Shown in pieces: positions 49,163 through 56,760 of a DNA stretch of 64,000 nt (position 1 is its first letter; each line of letters starts with the position of its first letter). This DNA comes from the human T2T-CHM13v2.0 reference genome, Homo sapiens, in the NCBI RefSeq assembly GCF_009914755.1, contig NC_060935.1. One strand, 5' to 3'. Under the pieces are notes generated by a model. It was given only the letters and a program-made list of their open reading frames with translations. It ran no database searches and was not told the DNA's origin. Position numbers and translations under genes: made by a program.

Positions 49163-49288
49163 AATAAAACTCTGGTCTCCTGCACAGCTGGCTCTGTGTG
49201 AGTTACTCTTTCTCTATCGCAATTTCCCTGTCTTGTTAAATCGGCTCTGTCTAGGCAGTGGGCAAGGTGAACTCATTGGGTGGTTACA
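49163..49288 (+). mobile_element. LTR8-like 5' LTR, R/U5 portion only
   Basis: First 21 nt identical to 56716-56736 of the 3' LTR; ends ...GGTTACA just before the PBS. Confidence 0.8.
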
Positions 49289-49292
49289 AATC

Positions 49293-49310
49293 TGGGGGCT
49301 TGTCCAGGAT
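49293..49310 (+). other. tRNA-Pro primer binding site
   Basis: TGGGGGCTTGTCCAGGAT vs canonical TGGGGGCTCGTCCGGGAT (16/18; both differences are CpG decay). Confidence 0.88.
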
Positions 49311-50513
49311 TGCCCATGTGGCTACCTGCCCATGGTTTGGTAGTCCCCCTCTGGTGATGGATTCAGATGCCAGCTCAAGCAGCTGCCTAGTTATTTTGGA
49401 CTGGGGGCTGACTCTGGTATTGTCTCTGCTGAAGGGGCACTGGTGACCCAGTGTGCATGGATTTAATTGCAATAGAGAAATAGTCTTGAGGAGATGTCCT
49501 ATAACTGTAGCCCTATCACAAGGTGTCTGTCTGTAGCCCAGTCATGGAGTGTCTGTAGCTGTAGCCTCATTACAGTGTGTCTGGATTGGTGAATATCCTA
49601 GGCACGGCCAACGCCTCCTTCCTTTTCCCGATTGGTTTGATTCCTTTGGGGAGGGGGTCTTGGTTTTTCTGTTGCCCCATGGTGGGGTGTCGGTCTGTAG
49701 CCCCACTGAGGGGCATCTTTCTCAGTTTGGTTCATTTGAGATTCTCGGTTGGCTCTCTCTAATTAGTAGGAAGAGTCTTGGTTTGGGAGACTTCTCAATC
49801 AGGAAGATTTTGGGGAGATTTCTCAGACAGAGAACAGGAGGATAGTTTGGAAGGGATACTCTTGGAGTTCTTGGTTAGGGATCTGATTTGGAAGCCCTTC
49901 TGTCTGTCTTGTCTTTGTATGTGTTTATATATGTGGAGGGGACCTCAGAAGGACTTGCTGATGAAAGTCCAGCAGGCCTAACTCAGAGAACCCTCCTTAT
50001 TTGTCTGGTCACATTCGGTGAGTCCCAAAGAAAGCTCAACAGGCCTGGCTCAGGACGACTATCTGCTCTTCGTCTTGCCCAGAGACCACCCATCAAATTA
50101 CTGGTTGGAGGTCATTCCTCCCCACCTGGAGTGGATCAAAGACAATGGGGACCAATGGGAGAAAGTTTGAGCCTTGCCAGGTCAATACTGGGTGGTGAAT
50201 GAGATGACTAGTGTCTGTTTTGTTATGTATATTTTGCTTTTACAGGGATGGAAAATGTTAGTTTGTTTCCCCATGCAGCCTCTTGGGCAGCATCTTGCAA
50301 AATTGAGAATCTTTTGCTTATGGTTCCATAAGAGAGAAAAGGGTGATTTTCTTTTGTAAAGTGGCTTGACCTCCACAGCTATGGCACAACTAGCAGGGTC
50401 ATCAAAAGCTGCTCTGTTCTTCCAGAAGCTGCAGAGAAAGGGAACCTGGAAACCTGGTATGCTGGCAAAAAGGGTAAGAAATTCTTACCAGCTGGGTTTC
50501 TGTACCTCCCCAT

Positions 50514-50548
50514 CTGTGTGTGTGTGTGTGTGCACGTGTGTGTGTGTG
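50514..50548. repeat. (TG)n microsatellite
   Basis: Interrupted TG repeat inside the ERV. Confidence 0.9.
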
Positions 50549-53060: not shown

Positions 53061-53397
53061 ATTTATTTATTTATTTATTTATTTATTTTTTTTATTGATC
53101 ATTCTTGGGTGTTTCTCGCAGAGGGGGATTTGGCAGGGTCATAGGACAATAGTGGAGGGAAGGTCAGCAGATAAACAAGTGAACAAAGGTCTCTGGTTTT
53201 CCTAGGCAGAGGACCCTGCGGCCTTCCGCAGTGTTTGTGTCCCTGGGTACTTGAGATTAGGGAGTGGTGATAACTCTTAACGAGCATGCTGCCTTCAAGC
53301 ATCTGTTTAACAAAGCACAACTTGCACCGCCCTTAATCCATTTAACCCTGAGTGGACGCAGCACGTGTTTCAGAGAGCACAGGGTTGGGGGTAAGGT
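53061..53397 (-). mobile_element. 5'-truncated SVA (SINE-R 3' end) inserted in the ERV
   Basis: Characteristic SINE-R sequence (TTGATCATTCTTGGGTGTTTCTCGCAGAGGGGGATTTGGCAGGGTC...); (TAAA)n tail; TSD TAGTAC(A/G)TAATT at 53049-53060 and 53398-53409. Confidence 0.92.
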
Positions 53398-55547
53398 TAG
53401 TACGTAATTAAAATCTCTTACTTGTCGGGCTTTTCACCAAAAATGAAAGTTGCTAAGGGTTAACATTGTAACATGTGATTGAGACTACTGGAGAAATGGT
53501 TTTACATCCAAAGTGTGTAGGGATAGTAGGATGTGTTTTTGGTAAAAGATTGTAAGTCGGCATGGAAATGTGGCTTTTGTTAAAGAGAATATAATTTTGT
53601 CTAGTTTAGAGGAATTTAAAGATTGTCTTAACCTAAAAGAGTATTGGGACAAAACTGAAGGTTTAAGCAAGTTGAAAAGGGTTTGTGAAGAGTTGGCCTT
53701 ATGAAGAAAGTTCTGTGGGTATGAGTAAGTTGGCTAAGATTTGAAGGGGATTATTTAATTTTTTTCCACATGTTGAATATTAAAATAAAAGCACATTAAT
53801 GCGGGGCCAGAATCTGGGCCCATGTGTCCGAATAACAGAGTTTTCTTAGAAAACTGAGATGCTGTTTAAAGGGTTCTAAAAAATTTATAAAAATCTTACC
53901 TTATGGTCAAACTAATTAAAACTGAATAGATTGATAAACTTTTATTTAGAAACTAGCTATAACATTAAAGATGCAATAATGCAAACATGAAATTTGGTTT
54001 TCTCTCTTTTTTCTTTTTTCAATAAATCAAGGTTTTTATTTTAATTTTTTAATTTTTCTATTTTTTGAGACAGTTTTCTCTTTCCTGGATTTCTCTTTTG
54101 AGAAAGATTTTTATGTAATATTAAAAGATAATGAAAGGTTTTTGTTTTCCCCTTTGGGTAAATGGCAGGGAGAGAGAAGAGACAGATTCAGTTGGCCTCA
54201 TGCTATCTTCATTGGGTCTTGTTTGGAAAGCTAAGTCTGTTCTATCAGAGTAAAGGTTTTCGTCTTAAAAAATTTTTTTTTGAGTTACCACTTCAGATAA
54301 ATGAGCAACCTGTGATTCTATTTTGTGATATAGTGTTCGAAACCTTTGATATTTGACAAACTTTCCAAAATTAAATTAAAAAATATATCATTTTCTGACC
54401 TAATCAATCCTTTTAGACATTAGGTCCTCTGAAGTCCAAAAATGATGTGTTTGGCTTATTTGGTATAAAAATCATACAGGAAGCATTGTCAAATATGAAA
54501 TGGTATTTGGCTATCTTTGGGCTGTACTTATATAAATATGTTATTAGTATTATTTTCAAAATTATTGGAAACTTCTATAATTCTGATGTGATTTAGGGTA
54601 CATTATGTAAAATTGTTGTATGCCACAGAAGTGACCAAAATTTCTAGTCAATTGAGCTTTAATAGTGGCTGTTGTAAGACTTTTGTCATCCACAGACATT
54701 TTGTCTGGCTTTGGTCCTTTTCAAAAGGCAGTTTATAGTCAGATATAGGACTCTGAGTGCAGGCCTCTGATAACTTTAAAAATTGTGCAATTGGAATAGA
54801 GGAAAAACTGAAACTTCTGGGACTCTCATGGAGAGCTGATGTGTTAAACATTGCTAATCCTTTTGTTTTCAGAATTAAGGAAACTTATTTCTTTTGAGCT
54901 ATTTACAACTTTTAGCAAGTGTGTAAAGTATACTCCTGGGAGCAAAATTTGAAGCATATTGCTTTCTCTTTACCTGATTTCTATGGAATTTAGAAACTAC
55001 TTGTGAGTATTCTCAACTTATGGCAGTATAGTTATTTGAATAAGTGCAATGAGAATCTGTTCTCTTCTGAAACAAGACACAATTGGAGAAACTGGTTATT
55101 TTACCAAGGCTTTGACTAAAATGACATGCTTTCTTTAGGGAATCAAAGTTGACTTATAAAGCCAATAAAGCCCCTTGGGAAAGCTTGCCTCATGCATTGT
55201 CTACAGAGTCCTTGTACAGAGTTCCTGACCAGTGGTAAGTAAAGAATGTCGCTTTCTGACAGGCCCAGGAGCCCCAAGTTATCTTGAGACCTTGAGATGA
55301 GGAATTCACAGGTGTTTGGAGGCATAGATAAATCCATGGCTGGGCTTCAAGGCTTTTAAAAAGTACAACCTGAGATTCTTTATAGAACAGTTTCAGCAAA
55401 GCCAATATTAAAAAGAGCCTATGTGAAAAATAATTATTCTTGCTACACTTTATGCAAATAATCAGGCCAAATATGATAAGACTAAAGTTTATTTTGTGAA
55501 CAGATCAGTTCTATCATGATGTGTTTTTGATAAAAATAGGGACTGGA

Positions 55548-55680
55548 CGGGAGGCTGAGGCAGGAGAATGGCGTGAACCCGGGAGGCGGAGCTTGCAGTG
55601 AGCCGAGATCGCGCCACTGCAGTCAGCCTGGGCGACAGAGCGAGACTCTTGTCTCAAAAAAAAAAAAAAAAAAAAAAAAA
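55548..55680 (+). mobile_element. AluY right arm only (5'-truncated) inside the ERV
   Basis: CpG-intact AluY right arm, long A tail, TSD AGGGACTGGA at 55538-55547 / 55681-55690. Confidence 0.92.
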
Positions 55681-56143
55681 AGGGACTGGAGAGAGAAAAA
55701 TTATGCTTCAAAAAACTATAGTACATCTGTTGTTAGTTGTTCTTCAGTTTTTTTCTGCAGTTTGGACTAAATCTTAAATTCTTTGTGGGCTGCAAGTCCC
55801 CAAACTAGAGCTTTCAAATCTTTGCTTTTAAAACTGGAAATCACACTCCTTATCTTAGTACTCATTATTTACCTTATAATGTGCTGTTCCCTTAAATGTG
55901 GTACTAAAATTATAGATGGCAATACTAATGCCTTTGTCATAGAAGCCTTAGAATCCCAGCCAGGCCTGTGTGAGTATGCTCAGACAGTTGCAAAGTGATT
56001 TCACTCCTCTCACCTTGGGGTCAACACCTACCCCCACTACACCCCTGGTCAGCAGGAAGAATTTAGAGGGGTCTTCGCCCTTTTCCCATCTTCATTAGCT
56101 AACACCTTAAGATTAAGGTGTTATAAAATCCAAAGGGAGAGAT

Positions 56144-56760
56144 TGAAACCACCATTGCAAAATTGTAACTGAGACAGTGAAAAGAGATCTGACCTAACCA
56201 ATTCCATCTTGCTTCTAACCTCCAAGCTGTTCTTGTTCATTCCTGGGCATAGGCTGAACTAACTTTGGGAAGAACTTAATTTATAGTTCATAGCTTAAAA
56301 CAAAGGTGATAACAGGCCTTTTCCAAGGCAAACCCCCATCATGCCTGGGGACTAGACTGCCTTTGTGGGACTAACAAATTAGCCACAAGATTAGAAATTA
56401 TGGTTCAGGAATCATACAGCTGAGGCTACAAGATTCTGACTCTATCTAAACTGCTCCTAATATCAGTGCTTGAGATATTTTACAGTCTCTGCACTTGATG
56501 GATCAGCTGGCACCACCAGATGAATAAACTGGCTCATCTGATCTTGTGGTCCCCACCCAGGAACTGACTCAGTGCAAGAAGACAGCTTCTACTCCCTGTG
56601 ATTTCATCTCTGACCTGACCAATCAGCACTCCCAGCTCACTAACTTTTCCCCCACCCACCAAGTTGTCCTTAAAACCCTGATCCCCGAATGCTCAGGGAG
56701 ACTGATTTGAGTAATAATAAAACTCTGGTCTCCTGCCAAAAAAAAAAAAAAAAAAAAAAA
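56144..56760 (+). mobile_element. LTR8-like 3' LTR, U3-R only, followed by A23 tail
   Basis: Starts TGAAACC after the PPT; AATAAA 56716-56721; LTR sequence stops at 56737 and poly(A) runs 56738-56760; U5 absent. Confidence 0.85.

What the first reader, a model, noticed from the sequence alone, without database searches (positions are those of the whole stretch)
49163..56760. LTR8/HUERS-P1-like ERV shaped like an mRNA retrocopy (R-U5 ... U3-R-polyA), not a provirus
Seen: the left end has only R/U5 (starts at AATAAA, ends TTACA, then PBS-Pro). The right end has PPT, U3 and R, stops 16 nt after AATAAA and runs into A23, with no U5. The two ends share only a 21-nt identical stretch (49163-49183 = 56716-56736) and together rebuild one LTR of about 700 bp. 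Established: this is the structure of genomic retroviral RNA, and L1-made processed copies are well known for HERV-W. Inference: a near-full-length transcript of a non-coding MER4-group ERV was retroposed by L1 machinery; I do not know this to be described for LTR8 elements. The copy also records the ancestral LTR8 poly(A) site and approximate TSS. Caveat: I found no convincing TSD.
Basis: partly seen in the sequence, partly recalled or inferred. Interest (0 to 1): 0.8.

Follow-up and report, generated by a model that had tools for sequence, protein, structure and literature searches.

The report
L1-made retrocopy of HUERS-P1 RNA
This 7.6-kb stretch is a dead copy of an ancient retrovirus's full-length RNA, pasted into the genome by the LINE-1 machinery rather than by the virus, and many sister copies share that origin, which reviews credit only to HERV-W.

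Summary
The left end is partial R plus U5 (49163-49288) followed by a primer-binding site. The right end is a polypurine tract, U3 and R, stopping 16 nt after AATAAA and running into A23 (56738-56760). The 21-nt overlap is exact. In at least 24 full LTR8 copies the two pieces are contiguous, giving one LTR of about 700 bp.

The interpretation, a LINE-1-made processed pseudogene of an unspliced HUERS-P1 transcript, is supported mainly by sister copies in the same genome:
- 16 of 37 leader-bearing copies lack U3 and start within 1 nt of one base, 27 nt after a TTAAAA box.
- 19 of 31 readable 3' ends of internal-bearing copies stop at the same poly(A) site.
- End types are paired 10 of 10.
- 7 of 15 sister copies have significant 10-19-nt target-site duplications.
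- TTAAA is enriched just upstream of the 5' junctions.

Two corrections. R is 41 nt, not 21. The window copy is 5'-truncated by 19 nt, so it records the poly(A) site but not the transcription start.

The window copy has no detectable target-site duplication, and no primate orthologue could be examined.

Five literature searches found no description of processed HUERS-P1 copies. I file it as a new member of a known kind.

The parts
49163..49183 (+). 3' 21 nt of R, starting at AATAAA. This is the 5' end of the retrocopy; the first 19 nt of the family's R are missing.
   Evidence: Searches show identity to 56716-56736. One search shows 16 sister copies starting 18-19 nt further upstream at GGAGACTGA. 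The 19 nt before 49163 match R at only 6 of 19 positions (my own reading).
49184..49288 (+). U5, ending in TTACA.
   Evidence: matches to full LTR8 copies stop at 49286-49291. Sequence read.
49293..49310 (+). Primer-binding-site-like 18-mer, TGGGGGCTTGTCCAGGAT.
   Evidence: Sequence read. Its reverse complement recurs exactly at 15 places in the genome, including the chr12 sister copy. The match to tRNA-Pro is recalled, not tested.
49289..56143 (+). HUERS-P1 internal region. It is unspliced, colinear with a provirus, and has no recognisable coding domains.
   Evidence: colinear with the proviral copy L127 (chr8) from end to end; no Pfam family in 26 ORFs or in three read-through frames.
52290..52582 (+). 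Alu inserted after retroposition.
   Evidence: Gap in colinearity with the provirus. SRP-RNA-like Rfam matches at 52288-52569. Alu-like matches.
53061..53399 (.). A second inserted repeat. It overlaps the stretch masked at 53050-53359 and is probably an Alu on the minus strand.
   Evidence: Gap in colinearity. TTAT run at 53059-53092. The repeat family was not tested.
55547..55681 (+). Partial Alu with an A26 tail, inserted later.
   Evidence: Gap in colinearity. Matches Alu parts of other loci. A26 at 55656-55681.
56132..56142 (+). Polypurine tract, AAAGGGAGAGA.
   Evidence: Sequence read. It lies directly before the LTR start, which the alignments define.
56144..56696 (+). U3, with a TATA-like TTAAAA at 56670-56675.
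   Evidence: 85-88% identity to LTR8 copies from 56140-56146 onward. for the TTAAAA box.
56697..56737 (+). Complete R of 41 nt, with AATAAA at 56716-56721. The cleavage site follows 56737.
   Evidence: The start is defined by 16 U3-less sister copies. The end is defined by about 35 poly(A)-ended sister loci.
56738..56760 (+). Poly(A) tail, a pure A23.

Best explanation
Window 49163-56760 is a processed pseudogene (retrocopy) of a full-length, unspliced, polyadenylated transcript of a HUERS-P1/LTR8 endogenous retrovirus.

Proposed sequence of events:
1. A source provirus was transcribed from the LTR8 start site, GGAGACTGA, 27 nt after a TTAAAA box.
2. The RNA was cleaved and polyadenylated 14-22 nt after the AATAAA in the 3' LTR.
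3. The RNA was reverse-transcribed on the chromosome, from its poly(A) tail, by LINE-1 ORF2p acting in trans (target-primed reverse transcription).
4. Copying stopped 19 nt short of the RNA's 5' end.

The product has the layout partial R, U5, primer-binding site, internal region, polypurine tract, U3, R, A23. It has no U3 in front, so it has no promoter of its own, and no U5 behind.

What is shown: the anatomy, the shared start and end points across the family, the pairing of end types, and the target-site duplications and TT/AAAA-like sites in sister copies.

What is inferred: that LINE-1 was the enzyme source, that this copy's missing target-site duplication reflects a target-site deletion, decay or an endonuclease-independent event, and the age. 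No relative is more than 88-89% identical, which suggests roughly 25-40 million years.
For: - Anatomy at the window.
- The two ends are halves of one LTR: at least 24 of 29 loci.
- Colinear with a provirus over the whole length, with gaps only at the window's own Alu insertions.
- Same 3' end plus an A tract elsewhere: 19 of 31 readable 3' ends among 39 internal-bearing loci (with L003, L004 and L022 and L042), plus 16 further 5'-truncated loci.
- Same 5' start without U3: 16 of 37 loci.
- Pairing of end types: 6 of 6 U3-less copies with a readable 3' end have poly(A), and 4 of 4 copies with 5' U3 have a U5-bearing 3' LTR (Fisher p=0.0048).
- Target-site duplications of 10-19 nt in 7 of 15 sister copies tested.
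- TTAAA within 30 nt upstream of the 5' junction in 8 of 16 copies, against 2 of 16 and 0 of 16 in control windows.
- Copies of graded length, from about 25-60 bp through 300-850 bp to full length, as with LINE-1 5' truncation.
Against: - The window copy itself has no detectable target-site duplication.
- Its 5' end is not at the family start site, so on its own that end would also fit a deletion.
- No orthologous empty site could be examined.
- By the same test, 8 of 15 sister copies also lack a significant duplication.
- The censuses cover only the 40 best-scored candidates of each search (of 103 and 274). These are ranked by likeness to the window copy, so the fractions may be inflated.
- The enzyme is inferred from hallmarks, not shown.
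Confidence: 0.9

Rival explanations
1. It is an ordinary integrated provirus that later lost its 5' U3 plus 19 nt of R through one deletion and its 3' U5 through another. The A23 would be an unrelated tract or the remnant of another insertion.
For: There is no target-site duplication of the LINE-1 kind at the window. The 5' end is not at the family start site.
Against: The 3' break lies exactly at the family's poly(A) site, 16 nt after AATAAA, with nothing between R and a pure A23. About 35 other loci break at the same place. End types are paired 10 of 10. No 4-6-bp duplication is visible either.
Confidence: 0.03
2. It is a retrocopy of the same RNA, but made by a route other than standard LINE-1 endonuclease-dependent priming. 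Examples are endonuclease-independent LINE-1 insertion at a DNA break, or cDNA made by another reverse transcriptase and captured during repair.
For: The window copy has no target-site duplication and no TT/AAAA site placed where one would explain the junctions.
Against: Sister copies show standard hallmarks. Old insertions often lose recognisable duplications: 8 of 15 sister copies fail the same test. Nothing in the window points positively to another enzyme.
Confidence: 0.05
3. It is a DNA-level (segmental) duplicate of an older processed copy rather than an independent retroposition.
For: Two pairs of processed copies elsewhere are near-identical duplicates: L115/L116 on chr10 and L147/L148 on chr15.
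Against: The left flank 48880-49162 is unique in the genome. The right flank matches only an old repeat at about 70% identity. No other copy exceeds 88-89% identity to the element.
Confidence: 0.02

Closest known systems
HERV-W (HERV17/LTR17) processed pseudogenes made by LINE-1. Sources: Pavlicek et al. 2002, known only through citations because it is not held; Grandi et al. 2016, PMC5016936, passages read.
   Same: The 5' LTR is reduced to R-U5 and the 3' LTR to U3-R, followed by a poly(A) tail. Copies are often 5'-truncated and sit beside true proviruses of the same family. They make up a large share of the family: about two thirds for HERV-W (PMC6995185, passages), against 16 of 37 and 19 of 31 in my samples here.
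   Different: It is a different ERV group (HUERS-P1/LTR8). R is short at 41 nt, with AATAAA inside it only 19 nt from the cap site. The internal region shows no recognisable gag, pol or env. No paper found describes these copies as processed. A review calls HERV-W the sole HERV group mobilised by L1 (PMC5537654, abstract and passage).
Ordinary mRNA processed pseudogenes, such as the annotated RPL21P94 at 48313-48878, 285 bp upstream.
   Same: Colinear with a mature polyadenylated RNA, promoterless, poly(A)-tailed, and made in trans by LINE-1.
   Different: The template is a retroviral genomic-length RNA, unspliced and 6.6 kb without later insertions. That is far longer than most retrocopied mRNAs.
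A HUERS-P1 provirus with two complete LTR8s, such as chr8:83.78 Mb (locus L127).
   Same: The internal sequence, primer-binding site, polypurine tract and LTR sequence are colinear throughout.
   Different: The provirus has U3 in front and U5 behind. The window copy has neither and ends in A23.

Membership tests
LINE-1-mediated processed pseudogene (retrocopy) | The 3' end lies at the RNA's cleavage site and is followed by a poly(A) tail. | tested here: met
   AATAAA at 56716-56721, last base 56737, then A23. About 35 sister loci share the same site.
LINE-1-mediated processed pseudogene (retrocopy) | The 5' end lies at or downstream of the transcription start, with no promoter (U3) sequence upstream. 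| tested here: met
   The window starts 19 nt inside R, and the upstream flank is unrelated to U3. The family start is defined by 16 of 37 copies.
LINE-1-mediated processed pseudogene (retrocopy) | A target-site duplication of about 7-20 bp flanks the insert. | tested here: not met
   The window shows none: 1622 of 2000 shuffles score as high, and a wider search gave 352 of 500. The feature is met in 7 of 15 sister copies. Lack of a duplication is a known minority outcome, so this lowers the claim but does not exclude it.
LINE-1-mediated processed pseudogene (retrocopy) | Insertion at a TT/AAAA-like endonuclease site. | tested here: inconclusive
   The window site cannot be placed without a duplication or an empty site. 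In sister copies TTAAA lies within 30 nt upstream of the junction in 8 of 16, against 2 of 16 and 0 of 16 in controls.
LINE-1-mediated processed pseudogene (retrocopy) | An empty orthologous site exists in species that diverged before the insertion. | not testable with these tools
   No primate genomes are on hand.
HUERS-P1 / LTR8 endogenous retrovirus family | LTR sequence homologous to LTR8 copies. | tested here: met
85-88% identity over 598 bp to 39 scored copies, out of 3409 candidates. No Dfam or Repbase consensus was available to confirm the label.
HUERS-P1 / LTR8 endogenous retrovirus family | Internal region colinear with other family members. | tested here: met
   provirus L127; leader, 3' internal and mid-internal pieces each hit the same set of loci.
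HUERS-P1 / LTR8 endogenous retrovirus family | Primer-binding site complementary to tRNA-Pro. | not tested
   An 18-mer lies at 49293-49310, 4 nt after U5. Its likeness to the tRNA-Pro site is recalled. An attempt to reach a tRNA-Pro gene by pattern gave too many hits to use.
Integrated provirus | Two complete U3-R-U5 LTRs. | tested here: not met
   The 5' LTR lacks U3 and 19 nt of R, and the 3' LTR lacks U5.
Integrated provirus | A 4-6-bp integrase target-site duplication. | tested here: not met
   No duplication of any length was found at the ends. The true LTR termini are absent, so the test is weak.

The most novel reading that the evidence does not exclude
HUERS-P1/LTR8 is a second human ERV group that LINE-1 retroposed on a large scale. 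About 40-60% of its internal-bearing copies, plus many 5'-truncated LTR8 fragments, would be processed pseudogenes rather than proviruses or solo LTRs. That contradicts the published statement that HERV-W is the sole such group.

The family also left 'R-only' retrocopies: 41 nt running from the start site to the poly(A) site, plus a tail, in four loci, two of them with clear target-site duplications. Three origins are possible:
- retroposition of very short LTR transcripts polyadenylated next to the promoter;
- template switching of the LINE-1 reverse transcriptase between the two R repeats of one RNA;
- recombination between the two R copies after insertion, a 'solo-R' analogous to a solo LTR.
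Probability: 0.5. Interest if true: 0.7.

Novelty: new member of a known kind. Interest (0 to 1): 0.6.

Why it matters
1. It would remove HERV-W's unique status and give a second, independent family for asking what makes a retroviral RNA a good LINE-1 template. Here the RNA is non-coding with a short R.

2. It changes how LTR8 and HUERS-P1 annotations should be read. Many 'LTR8' fragments would be promoterless U3-R tails or U5 heads. That matters for studies that treat LTR8 copies as promoters or enhancers in placenta and cancer, and for expression studies that count HUERS-P1 loci.

3. The copies map the family's transcription start and poly(A) site to the base without any RNA data.

4. The R-only copies offer a natural test of template switching or of polyadenylation next to the promoter.

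Tried and rejected
- Target-site duplication at the window. Local alignment of the flanks against shuffles and a wider 470-nt by 120-nt search gave nothing above chance.
- Pre-insertion site from paralogous repeats. The left flank is unique. The right flank is an old repeat only from about 56795. No help, and no sign of a 5' transduced flank.
- Coding remnants. There is no Pfam family in 26 plus-strand ORFs of 45 aa or more, or in three read-through frames of 49289-56143.
- The A26 at 51232-51257, flanked by AGAAACTGCT repeats. I first took it for a secondary retro-insert. It is ancestral to the family.
- ARAGORN found no tRNA in 48800-57000. Rfam gave only Alu-type matches.
- tRNA-Pro test of the primer-binding site by pattern. 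There were too many hits and the listing was cut off, so I abandoned it.
- Tree of R-U5 (147 columns). No branch is well supported. It shows only that the processed label clusters (7 changes against 12.2 in shuffles; 2 of 500 as low). No source locus can be named.
- Unreadable or ambiguous loci. Eight 3' ends could not be classified because of Alu insertions, longer LTRs, no match, or (L137) neither U5 nor a clear A tract. Two 5' ends (L063, L095) were ambiguous. All were left out of the fractions.
- Chance pattern hits. Of the 32 distinct places that I checked, 15 were not LTR8 and were mostly Alu tails: 5 of 14 and 10 of 18.
- Pavlicek et al. 2002 could not be read.
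Full report
**What is in the window**

The element runs from 49163 to 56760 on the plus strand.

- Left end. It begins with AATAAAACTCTGGTCTCCTGC at 49163-49183 and continues through 105 nt of U5 to TTACA at 49284-49288. Four bases later comes an 18-nt primer-binding-site-like motif at 49293-49310.
- Right end. A purine tract at about 56132-56142 is followed by an LTR that starts with TG at 56144. 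AATAAA is at 56716-56721 and the last non-A base is 56737. A pure A23 follows at 56738-56760. No U5 follows.
- Overlap. The 21-nt identity between 49163-49183 and 56716-56736 is exact and breaks on both sides.

**The two ends are halves of one LTR**

The window's own genome is held as G000 and the window is C11:6696001-6760000. A search with the right-hand LTR piece scored 40 of 3409 candidates, with the 39 copies other than the window's own at 85-88% identity. I compared 29 of these loci with both ends. In at least 24, the match to 56140-56736 runs straight into a match to 49163-49288 with just that overlap, and the LTR ends at 49286-49291. One LTR is therefore about 700 bp: U3 553 nt, R 41 nt and U5 105 nt in window terms.

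**Other copies end at the same base plus poly(A)**

Two loci (L004 on chr4 and L013 on chr9) stop at ...CTCCTG(CC) and run into A tracts.

A pattern scan for the R end followed by an A10 run gave 68 matches, against 24 for the reversed control. I checked 32 distinct places:
- 9 of 14 are LTR8 3' ends with A tails.
- 8 of 18 are LTR8 3' ends with A tails.
- The other 15 are mostly Alu tails that resemble the pattern.

The LTR8 pieces range from about 25-60 bp, through 300, 370, 500 and 850 bp, to full length. This is the graded 5' truncation typical of LINE-1 products.

**Census from the 3' side**

A search with the last 456 bp of internal sequence (40 of 274 candidates scored) gave 39 loci other than the window. 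I read the region around the expected R end for each.

| 3' end type | Loci |
|---|---|
| Ends at the poly(A) site with an A-rich tail and no U5 | 19 (two are a duplicated pair, L147/L148) |
| Continues into U5 | 12 |
| Unreadable or ambiguous (Alu insertions, longer LTRs, no match) | 8 |

So 19 of 31 readable ends are of the processed type.

**Census from the 5' side**

A search with the 612 bp after U5 (40 of 103 candidates scored) gave 37 loci whose match reached the primer-binding site. I dropped rows starting after query position 19 and secondary pieces. The 260 nt upstream of each were fetched and compared with a natural full LTR, L009.

| 5' end type | Loci |
|---|---|
| U3 present upstream | 19 |
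| Homology starts within 1 nt of one base, at (G)GAGACTGATTTGAG, with unrelated sequence upstream | 16 |
| Ambiguous | 2 |

In full LTRs that base lies 27 nt after a TTAAAA box (window 56670-56675) and 19 nt before AATAAA. It is the transcription start, so R is 41 nt (window 56697-56737). The window copy starts 19 nt inside R. The 19 nt before 49163 match R at only 6 of 19 positions.

**Pairing of end types and insertion hallmarks**

Where both ends of one element could be read, the end types always agree:
- All 6 U3-less copies have a poly(A)-type 3' end (chr12, chr3, chr13, chr11, chr2, chr8).
- All 4 copies with 5' U3 have a U5-bearing 3' LTR.
- Fisher p = 0.0048.

Target-site duplications abutting both junctions were significant against shuffles in these copies:

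| Copy | Duplication | Shuffles scoring as high |
|---|---|---|
| chr12 (full length) | 19 nt | 3 of 2000 |
| chr3 (full length) | 14 nt, perfect | 6 of 2000 |
| chr13 (full length) | at least 11 nt | 16 of 2000 |
| L035 (truncated) | 16 nt | 0 of 1000 |
| L047 (truncated) | 10 nt | 4 of 1000 |
| L060 (truncated) | 17 nt | 2 of 1000 |
| L033 (truncated) | 14 nt | 6 of 1000 |

The other 8 of 15 copies tested gave no significant duplication.

Many duplications begin with AAAA preceded by TT. TTAAA lies within 30 nt upstream of the 5' junction in 8 of 16 U3-less copies, against 2 of 16 and 0 of 16 in two control windows further upstream. These are the marks of LINE-1 target-primed reverse transcription, not of retroviral integrase.

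**The window copy itself**

- It is colinear with a proviral copy, L127 on chr8, from 49163 to 56735. The only gaps are at three later insertions: 52290-52582 (Alu), 53061-53399 and 55547-55672 (partial Alu with A26). The template was therefore an unspliced, genome-length RNA of about 6.6 kb.
- No Pfam domain is found in the internal region.
- No relative is closer than 88-89%: the LTR, the 3' internal region at 87%, R-U5. The leader reaches only 72-79%. The copy is old. My rough estimate of 25-40 million years is inference.
- It has no detectable target-site duplication.
- Its flanks give no paralogous pre-insertion site.
- The weakly supported R-U5 tree puts it nearest the chr12 processed copy. 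Processed copies cluster, with 7 changes against 12.2 in shuffles and 2 of 500 shuffles as low. This suggests a few source lineages, but no branch is well supported.

**Comparison with what is known**

The layout is the one described for HERV-W processed pseudogenes (PMC5016936, passages).

[quoted passage not shown] It found only 1 canonical and 3 other HUERSP1 chains (PMC4724089, passages).
- The Repbase review merely lists HUERS-P1 with LTR8 (PMC5753468, passages).
- A paper on a HUERS-P1/LTR8 transcript does not mention retroposition (PMC6862598, passages).
- Five full-text searches found no paper that links HUERS-P1 or LTR8 with processed pseudogenes.

Limits of the literature check: I could not read Pavlicek et al. 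2002, the Dfam or Repbase notes, or any supplements, so an earlier mention cannot be excluded.

**Verdict**

R is 41 nt, and this copy is 5'-truncated by 19 nt. The window copy is one member of what appears to be a second large family of LINE-1-processed ERV pseudogenes in the human genome.

Noticed in passing
L035 (chr6:65.12 Mb), L051 (chr1:173.69 Mb), L114 (chr7:158.61 Mb), L122 (chr15:87.67 Mb): Four 'R-only' copies consist of just the 38-41 nt from the family start site to the poly(A) site, plus an A tail. L035 has a 16-nt target-site duplication (0 of 1000 shuffles). L122 has a visible one, AAAACAGTTTTCTA against AAAAGTTTTCTA, which was not tested against shuffles. Random 5' truncation would not hit the R start four times. 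Possible origins are very short LTR transcripts, template switching between the two R repeats, or R-R recombination.
   Followed up: partly
window 50999-51269: An A26 run (51232-51257) and a 14-nt tandem duplication (51185-51212) lie between direct repeats AGAAACTGCT (50999-51008 and 51259-51268). It looks like a retro-insert with a target-site duplication. However, the segment and an A-rich tract are also present in the chr8 provirus and in about 200 candidate copies. If it is an insert, it entered the family's ancestor.
   Followed up: partly
window 53357-53395 and 55139-55234: Two of the three in-window exons of the predicted lncRNA LOC124902625 (hub annotation) lie inside the retrocopy. 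The first exon starts at the edge of the repeat inserted at 53061-53399.
   Followed up: no
window 48313-48878: The annotated RPL21P94 processed pseudogene on the minus strand lies 285 bp upstream. This interval therefore holds two LINE-1-type retrocopies side by side.
   Followed up: no
window 49289-49900: The leader after the primer-binding site is only 72-79% identical to other copies. The LTR and the 3' internal region reach 85-88%. This uneven divergence is unexplained.
   Followed up: no
window 56795-57050: The right flank, from about 35 nt after the tail, is an old interspersed repeat of about 250 bp. It is 68-76% identical to most listed copies, and the search found 103 candidates. The repeat family was not identified.
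   Followed up: no
L115/L116 (chr10:46.84 and 50.78 Mb); L147/L148 (chr15:20.06 and 18.52 Mb): Two pairs of poly(A)-ended LTR8 copies share near-identical flanks, so they were copied later by segmental duplication. I counted each pair as one event where noted.
   Followed up: no
L011 (chr2:224.2 Mb): An otherwise complete LTR8 carries an A-rich (CAAAA)n-type tract inserted inside R, just after AATAAAACTCC, with the rest of R and U5 following. It mimics a poly(A) end in a BLAST listing but is not one.
   Followed up: partly
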